Shown here piece after piece: positions 2,868-25,372 of a DNA stretch of 32,000 nucleotides; the first letter of the stretch is position 1; the number at the start of each line of letters is the position of its first letter. The translations under genes and the position numbers were made by a program. The notes below the pieces were generated by a model that had not been told where the DNA came from, ran no database searches, and was given only the letters and a program-made list of their open reading frames with translations. The stretch spans positions 340,325 to 372,324 of the forward strand of contig NC_003902.1 of the NCBI RefSeq assembly GCF_000007145.1. Direction: 5' to 3'. This DNA comes from Xanthomonas campestris pv. campestris str. ATCC 33913. GTDB lineage: Bacteria > Pseudomonadota > Gammaproteobacteria > Xanthomonadales > Xanthomonadaceae.

Positions 2868-3200
2868 TCAGCTGCCGCGATAGGTGGAATAGCCGTACGG
2901 CGACAGCAGCAGCGGCACGTGGTAATGGCCATGCTCGCCTAGGTTGAAGACGATCGGCACCATCTCCAGGAACGGCGGGTCGGCCAGCGCGGTGCCGCTG
3001 GCCTGCCAGTAGCCGGCCACGTCGAACTCCAGCCGGTAGCGGCCCCTTGCCAGATGCAACGTGGCCAGGGCCGGGCAGCGCCCGTCGGCATCGGTGGCCG
3101 CCTCCAGGCACAGGGTGTCGCCGGCGAACAGGCGCAGCGTGACGCCCGCAGCCGGGCGGCCGGCGGCGGTGTCGAGCACATGGGTGGAGAGCGTGCTCAT
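2868..3200 (-). CDS. uraH: 5-hydroxyisourate hydrolase (transthyretin-like)
   Basis: 110 aa from ATG 3200 (MSTLSTHVLDTAAGRPAAG...). Ends in the family signature ...HYHVPLLLSPYGYSTYRGS. Its ATG overlaps the upstream stop as ATGA, which favours 3200 over the longer ORF start at 3227. Confidence 0.9.
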   Translation of the reverse strand: MSTLSTHVLDTAAGRPAAGVTLRLFAGDTLCLEAATDADGRCPALATLHLARGRYRLEFDVAGYWQASGTALADPPFLEMVPIVFNLGEHGHYHVPLLLSPYGYSTYRGS

Positions 3201-4618
3201 GCCACCGCCTGCGTGGGCTGTGGCCATTGGCCGACGAATTCGGCCTGGTCGTAGCCCAGGTAGGCCTCGACCATGGCCTGGCGGTCGTCCAGGAACAGCT
3301 GATCGGCCACCGCCCGTGCCAGCCGCGGCAGCGCCACTTTCAGCCCCGATAACGCCGCTGCAGACAAGCCGTGGTTGATCAGCGCCGAATAGTTGAAGGC
3401 GAACAGCCCGTCCACCGCGGCGGCATCGTCGGGCGTGCGGGGCAGTAGCTCGAATCCAGGGCCCAGGTAGGGGTGCGCGTCCAGCACCGGATTGGCCTGG
3501 CCGGGCGGGGCCTGGTAGCGGTCGGCCCAGCAGGCGATGCGCCCGGACAGCGCGGCCAGCTCCGGGCGCAGCCGCGGGTCGGTGACCAGGCCGGTGGCGA
3601 TGGCCAGGAAGTCGAAACGGTGCTCGCCCTGCGGGGTGCGCACCACCACCACGTCATTGTGTTCTTCCACGCCCAGCCATGGCGCGTCCAGGTGCAGCGC
3701 AAAACCGGCATGCGCGCAGGCACGCTGGAAGGTGTCGTTGGTGGGCGGTTGGTTGCGGCCGAAGAAGCTGGCCATCATGCGGTACTTGTCGGCGTCGGGC
3801 AGGGCGGCGAAGCGTGGAATGATGCCGGCCTGTTCCATGTGGCGGATCGGGTTGACCCGCGGCAGCGCGGCGCGGCGCACGAACACCTCCGCACGCGCCA
3901 CGCCCTGGTCCAGCGCGAAGCAGGCGTTGTCGAACGCCGAGGCGCCGCCGCCCAGGATGCCCACGCGCTTGCCGGCCAATGCGGCGTAATCGATGGGGCC
4001 GGAAGTATGCGCGTAGCGCTGCGCCGGCAGGGCCTGGGTGATCCACTCAGGCACCTGCCATTGGCCGCCGCCCTGGATGCCGGTGGCCAGGATGATCTTG
4101 CGCGCCATCAGCGGCGCGCCCATCGCCAGGTGCAGGCGATGGATGCCGGGCGCGGCGTCTGGCTCGATGCGCACCAGCTGGGTGGCATTGCGCACCGGCA
4201 GCCGCAGCGCCGCGCGGTACCAGCGCAGGTAGTCCATCCAGGTGCCGCGCGGAATCTTGTCCAGCGCGTCCCAGCCGGCGGCGCCGTGCTGCGCCTCCCA
4301 CCAGGCGCGGAAGGTGAGCGTGGGCACGCCCAGGTCGATCGAAGTGATCTGCTTGGGCGTGCGCAGCGTCTGCATGCGTGCGTAGGTGACCCAGGGGCCC
4401 TCCTGCCCGGGCGGGTTTTCGTCGATCACCAACACGTTATGCACGCGCTCGCGTTGCAGGGCGAAGGCCGCGCCCAGGCCGCTCTGCCCGGCGCCGACGA
4501 TGACCACGTCGTACACATGGCCGGCCGGATGCACGCGCGGGCGCACCCAGGGTTCGCCGCCGTGGGCGAGGCGTTGCAGGTCGTGTTGCAGCGCGTGTTC
4601 GAGTTGAGCCAGGCTCAT
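3197..4618 (-). CDS. hpyO: FAD/NAD(P)-binding flavoprotein monooxygenase, probable HpyO-type urate hydroxylase
   Basis: 473 aa from ATG 4618. Two dinucleotide-binding motifs: VVIVGAGQSGLGAAF and VGILGGGASAFDNA. It lies between uraD and uraH with ATGA coupling on both sides. Xanthomonad urate clusters are known to use HpyO in place of uricase or HpxO. The 730-aa ORF in the track is an upstream run-on. Confidence 0.7.
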   Translation of the reverse strand: MSLAQLEHALQHDLQRLAHGGEPWVRPRVHPAGHVYDVVIVGAGQSGLGAAFALQRERVHNVLVIDENPPGQEGPWVTYARMQTLRTPKQITSIDLGVPTLTFRAWWEAQHGAAGWDALDKIPRGTWMDYLRWYRAALRLPVRNATQLVRIEPDAAPGIHRLHLAMGAPLMARKIILATGIQGGGQWQVPEWITQALPAQRYAHTSGPIDYAALAGKRVGILGGGASAFDNACFALDQGVARAEVFVRRAALPRVNPIRHMEQAGIIPRFAALPDADKYRMMASFFGRNQPPTNDTFQRACAHAGFALHLDAPWLGVEEHNDVVVVRTPQGEHRFDFLAIATGLVTDPRLRPELAALSGRIACWADRYQAPPGQANPVLDAHPYLGPGFELLPRTPDDAAAVDGLFAFNYSALINHGLSAAALSGLKVALPRLARAVADQLFLDDRQAMVEAYLGYDQAEFVGQWPQPTQAVA

Positions 4619-5106
4619 GGCAATGCCTCCAGGCGCAGGTGCACGATCTTGCCGATCTCGGCGAGGGCGGTGGCGATTTCGTCGTTGCGTGGTGCGTCCA
4701 GGCGACGCTGCAGTTCGGCCAGGATCCCGGCCTTGTCCTGCAAGCGCACGCAGATCACGAAGGGGAATCCAAAGCGCTGCCGGTAGGCATGGTTGAGTGC
4801 GTGAAAGCGGTGGAATTCGTCTTCGTCGAGCCGGTCCAGGCCGGCCGAGGCCTGCTCGGCGGCGGAGGCGGCGGTGAGGGTGCGGTCGATTGCGGCCTTG
4901 CCGGCCAGTTCCGGATGCGCGCGGATCAGCGCCAGCTGATCGTCGGGTGAGGCGTCGTACACCACCTGCATCAATCCGCCAAACACATCGTCGAACGGGC
5001 GGCGGCGCGCAGCGCGTTCGACCACCCACGGCGAATGCTCGAACAGCGCGCGGTAGCGCGCCACGAAGGCGGCGGTGTCCAGCGCGTTGGCATCGATCAC
5101 GCTCAT
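4615..5106 (-). CDS. uraD: 2-oxo-4-hydroxy-4-carboxy-5-ureidoimidazoline (OHCU) decarboxylase
   Basis: 163 aa. ...LFEHSPWVVERAA...LIRAHPELAGK...EQASAGLD...FHALNHAYRQRFGFPFVICVR matches the OHCU decarboxylase family. ATGA overlaps at both ends. Confidence 0.9.
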   Translation of the reverse strand: MSVIDANALDTAAFVARYRALFEHSPWVVERAARRRPFDDVFGGLMQVVYDASPDDQLALIRAHPELAGKAAIDRTLTAASAAEQASAGLDRLDEDEFHRFHALNHAYRQRFGFPFVICVRLQDKAGILAELQRRLDAPRNDEIATALAEIGKIVHLRLEALP

Positions 5107-24302: not shown

Positions 24303-24319
24303 GCCGTCATCCTCGCCGG

Positions 24320-25372
24320 TCAACGCAGGAAAAAGTCGCTATAGCCCTGGCTGCGCAGGCCACGGCGATAGGCGATCGAACTGCGATCGGCGGGGATGTG
24401 CACTTCCAGCAGCGGGTCCAGCGGCAGGTATTCCGGGCGCTGCGCTTCCACCATCGCGCGGTCTTCCTCGAACACGCGCAGGTTGAAGGCATGGACGTCC
24501 TCCACCGGCAGATGGGTGTCGAAGTTGCGCGCAATCGGCACCAGCAGCCGGGTCTTGTGCTTGGACACCGGGCTGGCCGCGTTCATGATCACCAGCCGCT
24601 TGCCCGGCACCGGGAAGTGGATGGTGAGCGTGGCGGTGAACGGCAGGTGCACTTCGAAATGGCGCAGCCACTGGAAGCCGGGGTCAACGTCGGGCAGCGG
24701 CATGTCCACCGAATAGTTGGCCACGCTGCTGAGGTAATCGGCGTTGAAACCGGTCGGCGTTTCGGTGGTGGTGTAGGCCGGCACTTCGCGCTTGTCTGGC
24801 TGGGCGAAGGTGGCGGTGTGCACGAAGGCGAAATGCGCCACGTCGATAAAGCCTTCCAGCTGCCGCGCGGCACTGCCGGCGATGTCGAAGCCCGGGCACA
24901 CAATCTGCTGGAAGCCGTCCTCGTCCCAGCCCGGCATCGGCGGGATCTGCACCTCGGCCGCGCTCACCCCGGCCGGCTTGGCCAGGCACACCCAGATCAG
25001 CCCGTAGCGCTCGGCCACCGCATAGGTGTGCAGGCGCATCTTGGCGGGGATGTTCTGATTCGGGCTGGCCGGGATGTGGTTGCAGCGCCCGCCCGCGCCG
25101 AAGCGCAGCCCGTGATAGGCGCACACCACCCCGGCGCCATCGGCGCTGCCCATGCTCAGCGGCACGCCGCGATGCGGGCAGACATCGCGCGCGGCCACCA
25201 GCTCGGCGCCCAGCCGGTACAGCACCAACGGCTCGTCCAGCAGCATGGCCTTGAACGGCGCCTCGCTCACCTCGCTGCTCAGCGCCACCGCGTGCCAGTG
25301 CTGGGCCAGGCGCTGCCAGTCGGCGGCCTCAAAGGTGCAGTGCAGCGGCAGGGCGGGGACGGCGACATCCAT
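24320..25372 (-). CDS. hpxD: Rieske non-haem-iron oxygenase alpha subunit (class IA, no beta subunit), HpxD-like
   Basis: 350 aa from ATG 25372. Rieske motif CPHRGVPLS...CAYHGLRF. The catalytic domain carries the FIDVAHFAFVH iron-ligand region. Immediately followed by its reductase. Confidence 0.8.
   Translation of the reverse strand: MDVAVPALPLHCTFEAADWQRLAQHWHAVALSSEVSEAPFKAMLLDEPLVLYRLGAELVAARDVCPHRGVPLSMGSADGAGVVCAYHGLRFGAGGRCNHIPASPNQNIPAKMRLHTYAVAERYGLIWVCLAKPAGVSAAEVQIPPMPGWDEDGFQQIVCPGFDIAGSAARQLEGFIDVAHFAFVHTATFAQPDKREVPAYTTTETPTGFNADYLSSVANYSVDMPLPDVDPGFQWLRHFEVHLPFTATLTIHFPVPGKRLVIMNAASPVSKHKTRLLVPIARNFDTHLPVEDVHAFNLRVFEEDRAMVEAQRPEYLPLDPLLEVHIPADRSSIAYRRGLRSQGYSDFFLR

What the first reader, a model, noticed from the sequence alone, without database searches (positions are those of the whole stretch)
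2868..25372. Apparently molybdenum-independent, oxygenase-driven purine-to-oxalurate/oxamate pathway concentrated in one 22-kb region
In pathway order the window encodes the following. Scavenging: a secreted adenosine deaminase, a nucleoside hydrolase and an NCS2 purine-base permease. Ring oxidation: a Rieske oxygenase plus PDR-type reductase (HpxD/HpxE-like, the Klebsiella-type replacement for xanthine dehydrogenase), an HpyO-type flavin urate hydroxylase, HIU hydrolase and OHCU decarboxylase. Ureide steps: PuuE allantoinase, AllC allantoate amidohydrolase and a PucG/HpxJ-type ureidoglycine aminotransferase, which makes oxalurate. Oxalurate steps: HpxZ-, HpxX/Y- and HpxW-like proteins. Absent from the window are XdhABC, uricase, ureidoglycine aminohydrolase, ureidoglycolate lyase/hydrolase and oxamate transcarbamoylase. 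The combination of HpxDE, HpyO (not HpxO), PuuE (not the metallo-allantoinase) and HpxWXYZ is a mosaic of the Klebsiella hpx logic with xanthomonad-specific isoenzymes. To my knowledge it has not been characterised as a unit.
Basis: partly seen in the sequence, partly recalled or inferred. Interest (0 to 1): 0.7.

Follow-up and report, generated by a model that had tools for sequence, protein, structure and literature searches.

The report
Xanthomonas purine-to-oxalate nitrogen-scavenging gene cluster
This stretch of the Xanthomonas campestris chromosome holds nearly all the genes needed to break purines down to oxalate and ammonia by a Klebsiella-type route that starts with an iron oxygenase; each enzyme is of a known kind, so it is a sound but largely expected pathway reconstruction with a few new details.

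Summary
Window 2868-25372 of X. campestris pv. campestris carries 14 catabolic or transport genes plus two LysR regulators. They form two sub-clusters separated by about 6.5 kb of unrelated DNA.

- Assignments hold at family or orthologue level: HpxD is 64% and HpxE 48% identical to K. pneumoniae. HpyO is an exact match to the protein named HpyO. PuuE, AllC, the two urate-downstream enzymes and HpxZ exceed NCBIfam cut-offs. The best solved relatives of HpxJ and HpxW are the Klebsiella enzymes.
- New details: there is no separate hpxX gene. An AtzG/HpxX-like segment is fused to the N-terminus of the AtzE-like amidase HpxY.
- The same ureide/oxalurate cluster, with HpyO and PuuE, occurs in Sphingomonas and Acetobacter. 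These isoenzymes are therefore not xanthomonad-specific.
- X. translucens, Sphingomonas and Novosphingobium carry xdhA directly after the cluster. X. campestris and Pseudoxanthomonas carry hpxDE instead.
- "Molybdenum-independent" is plausible, but absence of XDH from the whole genome could not be tested.
- The HpxXY and HpxZ reactions are inferred by analogy with AtzEG and AtzH.

Verdict: a variant of the known HPX pathway. Interest is modest.

The parts
2868..3200 (-). 5-hydroxyisourate hydrolase (uraH/hpxT type), 110 aa
   Evidence: TIGR02962 scores 112 bits against a cut-off of 87. The ATG at 3200 overlaps the hpyO stop as ATGA.
3197..4618 (-). HpyO, FAD-dependent urate hydroxylase, 473 aa
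   Evidence: Exact sequence match to AAM39598.1/AAY47375.1, named 'FAD-dependent urate hydroxylase HpyO [X. campestris pv. campestris]'. Pfam NAD_binding_9/Pyr_redox_3, not the FAD_binding_3 domain of HpxO.
4615..5106 (-). OHCU decarboxylase (uraD/hpxQ type), 163 aa
   Evidence: TIGR03164 scores 184 bits against a cut-off of 96. Pfam OHCU_decarbox 1e-46.
5103..5498 (-). HpxZ (AtzH-like NTF2-fold protein), 131 aa; inferred N-carboxyoxamate decarboxylase
   Evidence: NF033625 HpxZ scores 157 bits against a cut-off of 135. Exact match to AAM39600.1, 'oxalurate catabolism protein HpxZ'. AtzH pocket residues Y22, R46, R63, R66, R73, R96, Q106 and Q108 are all conserved.
5495..6385 (-). PuuE allantoinase (metal-independent, polysaccharide-deacetylase fold), 296 aa
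   Evidence: TIGR03212 scores 517 bits against a cut-off of 425. ATGA overlap with the hpxJ stop.
6382..7638 (-). HpxJ/PucG-type ureidoglycine-glyoxylate aminotransferase, 418 aa (TTG start)
   Evidence: Best solved relative is 3NNK, K. pneumoniae ureidoglycine-glyoxylate aminotransferase (E=2.6e-158, residues 10-410). Next is B. subtilis PucG 3ISL (E=3e-128).
7628..8899 (-). AllC allantoate amidohydrolase (M20), 423 aa; first gene of a seven-gene operon
   Evidence: NF006775 scores 663 bits against a cut-off of 479. Start refined.
9212..10105 (+). LysR-family regulator divergent from allC (candidate regulator of the ureide operon)
   Evidence: Pfam HTH_1 plus LysR_substrate. No specific NCBIfam model is reached. 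The regulatory role is inferred from position only.
15416..16996 (-). HpxW-like oxamate amidohydrolase (GGT-family Ntn hydrolase), 526 aa
   Evidence: Best solved relative is 5HFT, Klebsiella HpxW, for both chains (E=7e-86 and 8e-76). It falls just below the canonical GGT cut-off (351 against 358 bits). Thr340 aligns with residue 1 of the 5HFT small chain. The start overlaps the hpxY stop by 1 nt.
16996..18456 (-). HpxX-HpxY fusion: AtzE-family amidase with an AtzG/HpxX-like N-terminal segment, 486 aa; inferred oxalurate amidohydrolase
   Evidence: TIGR02715 AtzE family scores 679 bits against a cut-off of 426. Best solved relative is AtzE 6C62 (E=2e-98). The Lys116/Ser192/Ser216 triad is present.
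18349..18456 (-). HpxX/AtzG-like segment (residues 1-36 of the HpxY ORF)
   Evidence: - A profile of 9 small ORFs found upstream of AtzE-family amidases hits only this segment among 505 six-frame segments of the window (E=0.0014).
- hhalign of the Xanthomonadaceae N-termini against that profile gives probability 95.8% and P=7.5e-9.
- The same profile hits AtzG 6C62_C (E=3e-4).
- The AF2 model has a helix at residues 5-26 followed by a disordered linker at 28-41.
18593..19756 (-). IU-nucleoside-hydrolase family protein, 387 aa (divergent; specificity unknown)
   Evidence: Pfam IU_nuc_hydro 1e-49. It is below all NCBIfam cut-offs. The best PDB hit is only E=2e-19 and the N-terminal Asp-rich region is not aligned. 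Orthologues sit next to hpxY in X. translucens, X. hyacinthi, Stenotrophomonas and Xanthomonas sp. Kuri4-1.
19886..21454 (-). Exported adenosine/adenine-deaminase-family protein, 522 aa
   Evidence: Pfam A_deaminase 2e-25. The N-terminus MPMLRRCLILTVCALLPALAQA|RQ reads as a signal peptide. HxH, HAGE, HGV and STDD motifs are visible. Homologues are cluster-linked in Sphingomonas YR710 (51%) and Stenotrophomonas MMGLT7 (63%).
21578..22891 (-). NCS2-family purine-base permease, 437 aa
   Evidence: Pfam Xan_ur_permease 4e-46. No BLASTP match to Klebsiella HpxP at E<=1e-5. It is 76-80% identical to permeases next to hpxDE in Frateuria and Stenotrophomonas. The AzgA-like subfamily assignment rests on the TELLAGxTTFxTMAYI motif and my own knowledge.
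23343..24302 (-). HpxE, PDR-type FMN/NAD/[2Fe-2S] reductase, 319 aa
   Evidence: 48% identical over 308 aa to K. pneumoniae HpxE. Domain order is FAD_binding_6, NAD_binding_1, Fer2.
24320..25372 (-). HpxD, Rieske non-haem-iron hypoxanthine/xanthine hydroxylase, 350 aa
   Evidence: 64% identical at 100% coverage to K. pneumoniae 'molybdenum cofactor-independent xanthine hydroxylase subunit HpxD'. The CPH-x17-CAYH Rieske motif and DVAHFAFVH iron motif are present. Nearest solved relatives are NdmA/NdmB and SxtT.
25500..26417 (+). HpxR-like LysR regulator, divergent from hpxDE
   Evidence: 48.5% identical over 301 aa to K. pneumoniae HpxR, with the same divergent arrangement. The same hpxR/hpxDE module occurs in Frateuria, Stutzerimonas and Pararobbsia.

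Best explanation
The region is the purine-nitrogen salvage system of X. campestris pv. campestris. It is a variant of the Klebsiella HPX pathway, built from two sub-clusters.

Sub-cluster B (15416-26417):
- It contains hpxR, the divergent hpxD-hpxE pair, then a purine-base permease, an exported ADA-family deaminase, a nucleoside-hydrolase-family protein, the fused hpxXY and hpxW.
- The scavenging genes are proposed to deliver hypoxanthine or xanthine.
- HpxDE, a Rieske oxygenase with a PDR-type reductase using O2 and NAD(P)H, hydroxylates hypoxanthine to xanthine and then to urate without molybdenum cofactor.

Sub-cluster A (2868-10105):
- A LysR gene lies divergent from a translationally coupled seven-gene operon, allC-hpxJ-puuE-hpxZ-uraD-hpyO-uraH.
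- HpyO makes 5-hydroxyisourate. UraH and UraD give (S)-allantoin. PuuE opens it to allantoate. AllC releases NH3 and CO2 to give ureidoglycine. HpxJ transaminates ureidoglycine with glyoxylate to oxalurate plus glycine.

Oxalurate steps:
- The HpxX-HpxY fusion is proposed to deamidate oxalurate to N-carboxyoxamate plus NH3.
- HpxZ is proposed to decarboxylate that product to oxamate.
- HpxW hydrolyses oxamate to oxalate plus NH3.

Shown here: gene identities, orthology or family membership, operon architecture, synteny and the fusion.
Known from characterised homologues: the HpxDE, HpyO, PuuE, AllC, HpxJ and HpxW reactions.
Inferred only: the HpxXY and HpxZ reactions (by analogy with AtzEG and AtzH), the substrates of the deaminase, hydrolase and permease, and independence from XDH.
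For: Identity of the window:
- All eight window proteins tested are exact matches to X. campestris pv. campestris ATCC 33913 / 8004 entries.

Orthology to characterised enzymes:
- HpxD 64%, HpxE 48% and HpxR 48.5% to the K. pneumoniae hpx locus.
- HpxJ against 3NNK, E=2.6e-158.
- HpxW against 5HFT.
- HpxY against AtzE 6C62, and TIGR02715 at 679 against 426 bits.
- HpxZ above its NCBIfam cut-off, with all AtzH pocket residues conserved.
- PuuE, AllC, UraD and UraH above equivalog cut-offs.
- HpyO an exact match to the named protein.

Architecture and synteny:
- Five ATGA start/stop overlaps plus an 11-nt overlap link the seven genes of operon A. The hpxY stop overlaps the hpxW start.
- Pseudoxanthomonas GM95 has hpxD-E-Y-W-allC-hpxJ-hpxZ-hpyO-uraH as one operon.
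- Related clusters occur in Sphingomonas, Novosphingobium, Acetobacter and Gluconobacter.
- The hpxDE-permease-deaminase-hydrolase-hpxY-hpxW order recurs in Stenotrophomonas MMGLT7 and Xanthomonas sp. Kuri4-1.

Literature:
- hpxWXYZ corresponds to ggt-atzG-atzE-atzH in enterobacteria (PMC6219798, PMC3560190).
- hpxY is listed as oxalurate amidohydrolase (PMC12625717).
- HpxW is oxamate amidohydrolase (PMC5270733).
- HpxDE oxidise hypoxanthine and xanthine (PMC7373994).
Against: - No experiment on this locus other than HpyO is known to me.
- Whether a xanthine dehydrogenase exists elsewhere in the genome was not testable.
- The HpxXY and HpxZ reactions have no biochemical demonstration in any paper I could read.
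- The deaminase and nucleoside hydrolase are remote from characterised enzymes, and the hydrolase's N-terminal Asp-rich region is not aligned.
- HpxJ needs glyoxylate from outside the pathway, and no oxalate-consuming gene is in the window.
- REP-like elements lie between the deaminase and hydrolase genes, and between the hydrolase gene and hpxY. Co-transcription of sub-cluster B is therefore unproven.
Confidence: 0.8

Rival explanations
1. The Rieske/reductase pair is a second vanillate O-demethylase (VanAB) for aromatic catabolism and not a purine hydroxylase. The purine cluster would then lack its own ring-oxidising enzyme.
For: Pfam labels the C-terminal domain VanA_C. UniRef names this exact protein 'Vanillate O-demethylase oxygenase subunit'. 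PMC4682078 lists Xcc0296-Xcc0297 as a second vanA/vanB set. By accession arithmetic these are the genes analysed here.
Against: - 64% full-length identity to K. pneumoniae HpxD and 48% to HpxE, with the same divergent HpxR-like regulator.
- The nearest solved relatives act on purine-like rings: NdmA/B (1e-40) and SxtT (4e-38). Dicamba demethylase scores 3e-22 and phthalate dioxygenase 3e-18.
- The hpxR/hpxDE module sits among purine and nucleoside genes in five other genera.
Confidence: 0.04
2. A molybdenum-dependent xanthine dehydrogenase encoded elsewhere in the X. campestris genome carries the hypoxanthine/xanthine flux. HpxDE would be redundant or conditional, so the pathway is not really molybdenum-independent.
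For: X. translucens carries an xdhA-type gene (Fer2, Fer2_2, FAD_binding_5, CO_deh_flav_C) directly after uraH of the orthologous cluster. Sphingomonas YR710 and Novosphingobium do the same, so XDH is the common partner of this cluster type. Absence from the X. campestris genome was not tested.
Against: - In X. campestris and Pseudoxanthomonas GM95 the position after uraH holds unrelated genes, and hpxDE is present instead.
- No locus fetched here shows both xdhA and hpxDE, but each locus covers only 10 kb on either side of the query gene.
- HpxD at 90% identity or more is held across X. campestris, citri, euvesicatoria, phaseoli, arboricola, hortorum and dyei.
Confidence: 0.25
3. The AtzE-like amidase, AtzH-like protein and GGT-like protein act on another small nitrogenous amide (an allophanate-, biuret- or carboxybiuret-like compound) and not on oxalurate and oxamate.
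For: The only biochemically defined relatives of HpxY and HpxZ are AtzEG (1-carboxybiuret) and AtzH (1,3-dicarboxyurea). The authors of PMC6219798 could not assign a substrate to the widespread atzG-atzE-atzH clusters.
Against: - The genes are interleaved with allC and hpxJ, whose product is oxalurate, in single operons in several genera.
- HpxW's closest solved relative is the Klebsiella oxamate amidohydrolase.
- NCBIfam and the recent literature assign HpxZ and HpxY to oxalurate catabolism (PMC12625717).
- No other enzyme in the cluster could consume oxalurate.
Confidence: 0.1
4. The exported deaminase, the nucleoside-hydrolase-family protein and the permease are not a purine-scavenging front end. 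They serve another substrate or are merely neighbours.
For: All three are far from characterised enzymes. The hydrolase's N-terminal Asp-rich region is not aligned with solved nucleoside hydrolases. REP elements separate the genes. A periplasmic deaminase paired with a cytoplasmic hydrolase is not an obvious relay.
Against: - The same trio lies between hpxDE and hpxY in Stenotrophomonas MMGLT7 and Xanthomonas sp. Kuri4-1.
- The hydrolase stays next to hpxY in X. translucens and X. hyacinthi.
- The deaminase homologue abuts the cluster in Sphingomonas YR710.
- The permease follows hpxDE in Frateuria.
Confidence: 0.2

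Closest known systems
Klebsiella pneumoniae / K. oxytoca HPX purine-catabolic system (hpxDE-R-O-PQT, hpxSAB, hpxJK, hpxWXYZ)
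   Same: The chemical route is the same: Rieske/PDR hydroxylase for hypoxanthine and xanthine, a flavin urate hydroxylase, HIU hydrolase, OHCU decarboxylase, allantoinase, allantoate amidohydrolase, ureidoglycine-glyoxylate aminotransferase, oxalurate steps and oxamate amidohydrolase. Orthologues of HpxD, E, R, J, W, Y and Z are present, and hpxR is divergent from hpxDE as in Klebsiella.
   Different: - The urate hydroxylase is HpyO (NAD_binding_9 family), not HpxO (FAD_binding_3).
- The allantoinase is PuuE, not a metallo-allantoinase, and no racemase is present.
- The permease did not match HpxP in BLASTP at E<=1e-5.
- HpxX is fused to HpxY instead of being a separate gene.
- hpxZ sits in the ureide operon, apart from hpxYW.
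- An exported deaminase and a nucleoside-hydrolase-family gene are added.
AtzE-AtzG-AtzH of the Pseudomonas sp. ADP cyanuric acid operon (PDB 6C62, 6BJT)
   Same: HpxY is an AtzE-family Ser-cisSer-Lys amidase (E=2e-98). Its N-terminal segment is homologous to AtzG. HpxZ keeps all AtzH pocket residues. The proposed chemistry, terminal ureido deamidation followed by decarboxylation of the N-carboxy product, is the same type.
   Different: The substrate is proposed to be oxalurate, not 1-carboxybiuret. The small subunit is shortened by about 19 residues and covalently fused. There are no atzD or atzF partners, and the context is purine catabolism.
HpyO urate hydroxylase of Xanthomonas campestris (Michiel et al. 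2012, as cited in PMC4562309)
   Same: The window protein matches exactly the sequence of the database entry named HpyO from X. campestris pv. campestris.
   Different: None for the enzyme. From memory, the published work concerns this single step and not the rest of the cluster. The paper is not held and could not be read.
Ureide/oxalurate clusters linked to XdhABC in X. translucens, Sphingomonas sp. YR710 and Novosphingobium sediminicola (loci L087, L006, L023)
   Same: They share the hpxY-hpxW-allC-hpxJ-puuE-(hpxZ)-uraD-(hpyO)-uraH gene set at 47-87% identity.
   Different: They carry an xdhA-type gene directly after uraH and no hpxDE within 10 kb. The alphaproteobacterial ones have a separate small hpxX/atzG-like ORF instead of the fusion.
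E. coli ALL pathway oxamate branch (AllD, AllFGH oxamate transcarbamoylase, AllK)
   Same: Both pass through oxalurate and oxamate (PMC11326118).
   Different: E. coli reaches oxalurate by oxidising ureidoglycolate and cleaves it phosphorolytically to carbamoyl phosphate. No allD, allFGH or allK homologue is in the window. Here the route is hydrolytic and ends in oxalate.

Membership tests
HpxD (Mo-cofactor-independent xanthine hydroxylase, Rieske oxygenase subunit) | Full-length similarity to the genetically defined Klebsiella HpxD | tested here: met
   64% identity at 100% coverage to the K. pneumoniae protein named HpxD, E=1.5e-144.
HpxD (Mo-cofactor-independent xanthine hydroxylase, Rieske oxygenase subunit) | Rieske CXH...CXXH cluster motif and mononuclear-iron DxxHx4H motif | tested here: met
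   CPHRGVPLSMGSADGAGVVCAYH and DVAHFAFVH are present.
HpxD (Mo-cofactor-independent xanthine hydroxylase, Rieske oxygenase subunit) | Adjacent PDR-type reductase (HpxE) and divergent LysR regulator (HpxR) | tested here: met
   HpxE is 48% and the LysR 48.5% identical to the Klebsiella proteins, in the same arrangement.
HpxD (Mo-cofactor-independent xanthine hydroxylase, Rieske oxygenase subunit) | Hydroxylation of hypoxanthine and xanthine | not testable with these tools
   Needs an enzyme assay or mutant growth test.
HpyO (FAD-dependent urate hydroxylase, non-homologous to HpxO) | Sequence identity to the named X. campestris enzyme and the NAD_binding_9 flavoprotein fold family | tested here: met
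   Exact match to AAM39598.1, named HpyO. Pfam NAD_binding_9/Pyr_redox_3.
HpxW (oxamate amidohydrolase, GGT-family Ntn hydrolase) | Closest characterised relative is Klebsiella HpxW and not canonical GGT | tested here: met
   5HFT chains A and B are the top hits among GGT-family structures (7e-86 and 8e-76). E. coli GGT scores 4e-56. The protein is below the TIGR00066 cut-off.
HpxW (oxamate amidohydrolase, GGT-family Ntn hydrolase) | Autoprocessing nucleophile Thr at the start of the small subunit | tested here: met
   Thr340 (GD|TVWFGA) aligns with residue 1 of 5HFT chain B.
HpxW (oxamate amidohydrolase, GGT-family Ntn hydrolase) | Operon linkage with the hpxY amidase | tested here: met
   The hpxY stop and hpxW start overlap. 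The same pair is adjacent in nine other loci fetched here, and in Gluconobacter (L004) hpxW lies about 4 kb away on the opposite strand.
HpxY / AtzE-family amidase | Amidase-signature Ser-cisSer-Lys triad and AtzE-family model score | tested here: met
   TIGR02715 scores 679 against a cut-off of 426. K116, S192 and S216 are invariant.
HpxY / AtzE-family amidase | Separate small GatC-like partner subunit (HpxX/AtzG) encoded immediately upstream | tested here: not met
   There is no small ORF or NCBIfam hit upstream. The partner is fused instead: the N-terminal 32-36 residues are homologous to the C-terminal two-thirds of HpxX/AtzG.
HpxY / AtzE-family amidase | Activity on oxalurate | not testable with these tools
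   Inferred from context only.
HpxZ / AtzH (DUF3225, NTF2-like) | Family model score and conservation of the AtzH catalytic and binding residues | tested here: met
   NF033625 scores 157 against a cut-off of 135. Y22, R46, R63, R66, R73, R96, Q106 and Q108 equivalents are all present.
HpxJ / PucG ureidoglycine aminotransferase | Class-V aminotransferase closest to the characterised Klebsiella and Bacillus enzymes | tested here: met
   3NNK scores 2.6e-158 and 3ISL 3e-128. The next hit, an alanine-glyoxylate aminotransferase, scores 4e-80.
PuuE allantoinase | Equivalog model above cut-off | tested here: met
   TIGR03212 scores 517 against a cut-off of 425.
AllC allantoate amidohydrolase | Equivalog model above cut-off | tested here: met
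   NF006775 scores 663 against a cut-off of 479.
Klebsiella HPX system as a whole | HpxO-type urate hydroxylase, HpxB metallo-allantoinase with HpxA racemase, HpxP permease | tested here: not met
   These are replaced by HpyO, PuuE and a permease that did not match HpxP at E<=1e-5. No FAD_binding_3, amidohydrolase-type allantoinase or racemase gene is in the window.
Molybdenum-independent purine oxidation (no XDH in the organism) | Absence of xdhABC from the whole genome | not testable with these tools
   Only the 32-kb window is held. The protein search with an X. translucens XdhA fragment returned only partial proteins and was uninformative.
Nucleoside hydrolase (IU-NH family) | N-terminal Asp-rich Ca2+/ribose-binding motif and an equivalog-level score | tested here: inconclusive
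   The Pfam family hit is 1e-49, but the profile match starts after the motif. The sequence there reads EDDIDGFT. No NCBIfam cut-off is reached.

The most novel reading that the evidence does not exclude
In the X. campestris clade and some other Xanthomonadaceae, the cluster-linked molybdenum enzyme XdhABC has been displaced by the iron oxygenase HpxDE, and no XDH remains in the genome. The whole route from purine base to oxalate, ammonia and glycine would then run without molybdenum cofactor. The two-subunit oxalurate amidohydrolase has also been simplified to a single chain by fusing a shortened HpxX/AtzG to HpxY. This fusion would offer a naturally soluble, one-gene form of an AtzEG-type enzyme on which to demonstrate the still unproven HpxXY/HpxZ chemistry.
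Probability: 0.45. Interest if true: 0.45.

Novelty: new variant of a known kind. Interest (0 to 1): 0.3.

Why it matters
- It gives a coherent, testable map of how a model plant pathogen can strip nitrogen from purines and ureides. My own speculation is that plant-derived allantoin could be one such source.
- It corrects an annotation that is in the literature. The 'second vanAB set' Xcc0296-0297 is most likely hpxED.
- It shows that the HPX-type oxalurate branch, coupled with HpyO and PuuE, is spread across gamma- and alphaproteobacteria. It pairs interchangeably with either XdhABC or HpxDE.
- It identifies a natural HpxX-HpxY fusion that could make the biochemistry of oxalurate hydrolysis easier to establish.
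- None of this overturns current understanding. It extends a known pathway to another lineage.

Tried and rejected
- Rfam scan of the whole window at gathering thresholds gave no hit. There is therefore no xanthine/urate (NMT1) or other known riboswitch ahead of hpxDE or the permease.
- The promoter/terminator consensus scan of 15300-25700 found no more than shuffles give, so it is uninformative for operon limits.
- The search for a separate hpxX gene found nothing. No small ORF was seen upstream of hpxY and there was no NCBIfam or PDB hit with the single N-terminal sequence. The homology appeared only with profiles.
- The genome-contig scan with the HpxY alignment used generic amidase-signature peptides. 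It returned mostly GatA-like loci and neither Xanthomonas nor Klebsiella. About 25 AtzE-family loci were still usable.
- To test for XDH in X. campestris, I ran a protein search with the X. translucens XdhA N-terminal 152 aa. It listed only short partial proteins and not even the source protein, so it says nothing either way.
- Four literature searches aimed at Xanthomonas purine catabolism, XDH or these locus tags found nothing on this cluster beyond HpyO and the vanAB mention.
- Michiel 2012, Pope 2009, Hicks & Ealick 2016 and Huynh & Stewart 2023 are not held.
- The 100-aa ORF at 22952-23254 and the ORFs at 10007-11501 and 28283-28630 were rejected as non-coding. They have no family hits and are Arg/Ala-rich or lie inside REP arrays.

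Full report
Origin and gene map.
The window is high-GC DNA (64-71% GC). Eight proteins translated from it are exact, full-length matches to entries from Xanthomonas campestris pv. campestris ATCC 33913 (AAM396xx) and 8004 (AAY473xx). All genes are on the minus strand unless stated.

| Gene | Coordinates |
|---|---|
| uraH (HIU hydrolase) | 2868-3200 |
| hpyO | 3197-4618 |
| uraD (OHCU decarboxylase) | 4615-5106 |
| hpxZ | 5103-5498 |
| puuE | 5495-6385 |
| hpxJ | 6382-7638 |
| allC | 7628-8899 |
| LysR gene (+) | 9212-10105 |
| 186-bp x 5.4 REP-like tandem array | 10583-11591 |
| NepI-like MFS gene (+) | ends 13172 |
| ybhP/clsB-like pair (+) | 13600-15377 |
| hpxW | 15416-16996 |
| hpxY | 16996-18456 |
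| nucleoside-hydrolase-family gene | 18593-19756 |
| exported deaminase-family gene | 19886-21454 |
| NCS2 permease | 21578-22891 |
| hpxE | 23343-24302 |
| hpxD | 24320-25372 |
| hpxR-like LysR gene (+) | 25500-26417 |

Check of each assignment.
- HIU hydrolase, OHCU decarboxylase, PuuE, AllC and HpxZ all exceed NCBIfam equivalog cut-offs: 112/87, 184/96, 517/425, 663/479 and 157/135 bits.
- HpyO is the very protein that databases name 'FAD-dependent urate hydroxylase HpyO'. PMC4562309 states that HpyO was identified in Xanthomonas as a non-homologous isofunctional urate hydroxylase.
- HpxD is 64% identical over its full length to the K. pneumoniae protein named 'molybdenum cofactor-independent xanthine hydroxylase subunit HpxD'.
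- I fetched that Klebsiella locus (hpxT-Q-P, hpxO, hpxR, hpxD, hpxE). BLASTP gives HpxE 48% and the divergent LysR 48.5% identity to HpxR.
- HpxD has the Rieske and mononuclear-iron motifs. Its nearest solved relatives are the methylxanthine demethylases NdmA/NdmB (1e-40) and the saxitoxin hydroxylases SxtT/SxtDIOX (4e-38). These rank ahead of dicamba demethylase (3e-22) and phthalate dioxygenase (3e-18).
- HpxJ's best solved relative is K. pneumoniae ureidoglycine-glyoxylate aminotransferase 3NNK (2.6e-158), followed by B. subtilis PucG.
- The GGT-like protein's best relatives are the two chains of 5HFT, the Klebsiella HpxW structure. PMC5270733 cites HpxW as oxamate amidohydrolase. The window protein falls just below the canonical GGT model cut-off and keeps the nucleophile Thr.
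- The amidase is an AtzE-family member (679/426 bits; AtzE 6C62 at 2e-98) with the catalytic triad.
- HpxZ conserves every residue of the AtzH substrate pocket, including the catalytic Tyr22 and Arg46.

HpxX is fused, not missing.
PMC6219798 shows that enterobacterial hpxWXYZ corresponds to ggt-atzG-atzE-atzH, so a small AtzG-like gene was expected upstream of hpxY. None exists. Instead, all Xanthomonas HpxY proteins are 484-488 aa long and carry about 40 extra N-terminal residues that most alphaproteobacterial homologues lack.

I collected nine small ORFs lying immediately upstream of AtzE-family amidases in other genomes.
- Their profile hits AtzG itself in the PDB (6C62_C, E=3e-4).
- Among all 505 six-frame segments of the window, it hits only the first 32 residues of the HpxY ORF (E=0.0014; the next best is 2.2).
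- Profile-profile comparison of 17 Xanthomonadaceae N-termini with the small-ORF family gives 95.8% probability and P=7.5e-9. It aligns residues 2-36 to positions 20-54 of 60.
- An AlphaFold model has a helix at residues 5-26, a disordered linker at 28-41, then the amidase body.

In this lineage the partner subunit has therefore lost its first ~19 residues and been fused to the amidase. The B100 genome annotation (435 aa) omits this segment.

Operon structure and synteny.
- allC through uraH are joined by an 11-nt overlap and five ATGA start/stop overlaps. They therefore read as one translationally coupled seven-gene operon.
- hpxY and hpxW also overlap.
- In Pseudoxanthomonas sp. GM95 the genes hpxD-hpxE-hpxY-hpxW-allC-hpxJ-hpxZ-hpyO-uraH form a single uninterrupted operon next to hpxR. 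puuE, a permease and a TonB receptor lie nearby. This is the strongest evidence that the two X. campestris sub-clusters are one functional unit, split by later insertions.
- The order hpxE-permease-deaminase-(TonB receptor)-hydrolase-hpxY-hpxW recurs in Stenotrophomonas sp. MMGLT7 and Xanthomonas sp. Kuri4-1.
- The hpxR/hpxDE module alone sits among purine and nucleoside uptake genes in Frateuria, Stutzerimonas and Pararobbsia.

Not xanthomonad-specific, and the XDH question.
tblastn of the window proteins against all fetched loci gave the following.
- Sphingomonas sp. YR710 carries hpxY-permease-hpxW-allC-hpxJ-puuE-uraD-hpyO-uraH, with the deaminase homologue adjacent.
- Acetobacter musti carries hpyO-hpxY-hpxW-allC-hpxJ-puuE-uraD-uraH.
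- Novosphingobium sediminicola carries the set with hpxZ.

The HpyO/PuuE/HpxWYZ combination is thus a widespread cluster type and not a xanthomonad mosaic.

X. translucens has the orthologous cluster (68-87% identity), but a gene with XdhA domain architecture starts 2 nt after uraH, and no hpxDE lies within 10 kb. Sphingomonas YR710 and Novosphingobium likewise have an xdhA-like gene right after uraH. In X. campestris and Pseudoxanthomonas GM95 that position holds unrelated genes, and hpxDE is present. The pattern is that of two alternative ring-oxidising modules plugged into the same downstream pathway.

It does not show that X. campestris lacks XDH elsewhere. I could not search the rest of its genome, and a protein search with the X. 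translucens XdhA fragment was uninformative.

Mechanism.
- Known from characterised homologues:
  - HpxDE oxidises hypoxanthine and xanthine to urate (PMC7373994).
  - HpyO makes 5-hydroxyisourate (PMC4562309).
  - UraH and UraD give allantoin, PuuE gives allantoate, and AllC gives ureidoglycine.
  - HpxJ converts ureidoglycine plus glyoxylate to oxalurate plus glycine (the molecule name of 3NNK).
  - HpxW converts oxamate to oxalate plus NH3 (PMC5270733).
- Inferred:
  - AtzEG deamidates 1-carboxybiuret and AtzH decarboxylates the resulting 1,3-dicarboxyurea (PMC6219798).
  - By analogy, HpxXY would deamidate the terminal ureido group of oxalurate to N-carboxyoxamate, and HpxZ would decarboxylate that to oxamate.
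  - PMC12625717 lists hpxY as 'oxalurate amidohydrolase', citing Huynh & Stewart 2023. I found no biochemical demonstration.
- Net yield per urate would be three NH3 and one glycine nitrogen. Oxalate is the carbon end product, and glyoxylate must come from elsewhere.

The front end is the weakest part.
- The deaminase has a clear export signal and the metal and catalytic motifs of the adenosine/adenine deaminase superfamily. It is remote from any characterised member.
- The hydrolase-family protein's N-terminal Asp-rich region is not aligned with solved nucleoside hydrolases, and it has no signal peptide.
- The permease only faintly matches the xanthine permease model and did not match HpxP.

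What is and is not new.
- The HPX pathway, HpyO, PuuE, HpxJ, HpxW and AtzEGH are all described.
- HpyO was characterised from this organism, and NCBI already labels HpyO and HpxZ here.
- hpxD and hpxE are still annotated generically or as vanillate demethylase. PMC4682078 counts Xcc0296-0297 as a second vanAB pair. By accession arithmetic (AAM39598 = XCC0279, so AAM39616 = XCC0297) these are the genes analysed here. That reading is very probably wrong.
- The new points are the HpxX-HpxY fusion, the xdhA/hpxDE alternation on a shared downstream cluster, the wide distribution of the HpyO/PuuE/HpxWYZ cluster, and the one-operon form in Pseudoxanthomonas.

I rate the finding as a new variant of a known kind, with modest interest (0.3). 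It is a correct and useful reconstruction that a specialist would find expected in outline.

Noticed in passing
window 10578-11591; 19801-19892; 28288-28821: A ~70-nt REP-like palindrome (GTAGGAGCGCGCTTGCGCGCGATG...CATCGCGCGCAAGCGCGCTCCTAC) occurs three times. There are six copies in a 186-bp x 5.4 tandem array, one copy between the deaminase and hydrolase genes, and four copies in a second ~136-bp array. ORFs predicted inside the arrays have no family hits and are probably spurious.
   Followed up: partly
window 18457-18592: A different repeat-like element, whose translation gives 'PLPAGEGLE'-type motifs, fills the gap between the hydrolase gene and hpxY. The last ~35 codons of the hydrolase ORF read into it, so its true C-terminus is uncertain.
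   Followed up: no
window ~11889-13172 (+); L001 12001-13239: The MFS transporter between the two sub-clusters resembles the purine-ribonucleoside efflux pump NepI (282 bits, below the cut-off of 584). It is 43-45% identical to the MFS gene lying convergent with hpxE in K. pneumoniae. This may be a conserved association with hpx genes.
   Followed up: partly
window 13600-15377 (+): An endonuclease/exonuclease/phosphatase-family gene followed by cardiolipin synthase ClsB (NF008427, 521 against 281 bits) sits between the purine sub-clusters. From memory, it resembles the E. coli ybhP-clsB pair and is unrelated to purine catabolism.
   Followed up: no
L087 21003-21458 (X. translucens); L006 ~20183; L023 ~18702: An xdhA-type gene starts directly after uraH in the orthologous clusters of X. 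translucens, Sphingomonas sp. YR710 and Novosphingobium sediminicola. The X. translucens cluster also keeps an HpxR-like LysR (74% identical) although hpxDE is absent from the 10-kb flanks.
   Followed up: partly
window 23343-25372 (Xcc0296-Xcc0297 by accession arithmetic): PMC4682078 lists Xcc0296-Xcc0297 as a second vanA/vanB (vanillate demethylase) set. UniRef also names the oxygenase 'Vanillate O-demethylase oxygenase subunit'. The evidence here points to hpxE/hpxD instead.
   Followed up: yes
window 16996-18456: Strain B100's annotation of this gene is 435 aa (CAP49648.1), starting downstream of the HpxX-like segment. The other strains listed for this cluster are 486 aa.
   Followed up: partly
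L088 and L090 (Stenotrophomonas sp. MMGLT7, Xanthomonas sp. Kuri4-1): A ~472-aa Amidohydro_1 protein, possibly a guanine-deaminase-like enzyme, lies immediately upstream of hpxE where hpxD would be expected. TonB-dependent receptors and a second hydrolase-family gene are embedded in the scavenging block. Neither feature is present in X. campestris.
   Followed up: no
window 22892-23342: A 450-bp gap with no gene that I accept as real lies between hpxE and the permease gene. It has no Rfam hit and no consensus promoter or terminator. It probably holds the promoter of the scavenging genes.
   Followed up: partly
window 42-1970 (+), 2278-2751 (-), 26723-27559 (+), 28865-31118: The flanking genes are a methyl-accepting chemotaxis protein with multiple HAMP domains, a DUF1456 protein, TatD, and a LysR/MFS divergent pair. 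None has an evident link to purine catabolism.
   Followed up: no
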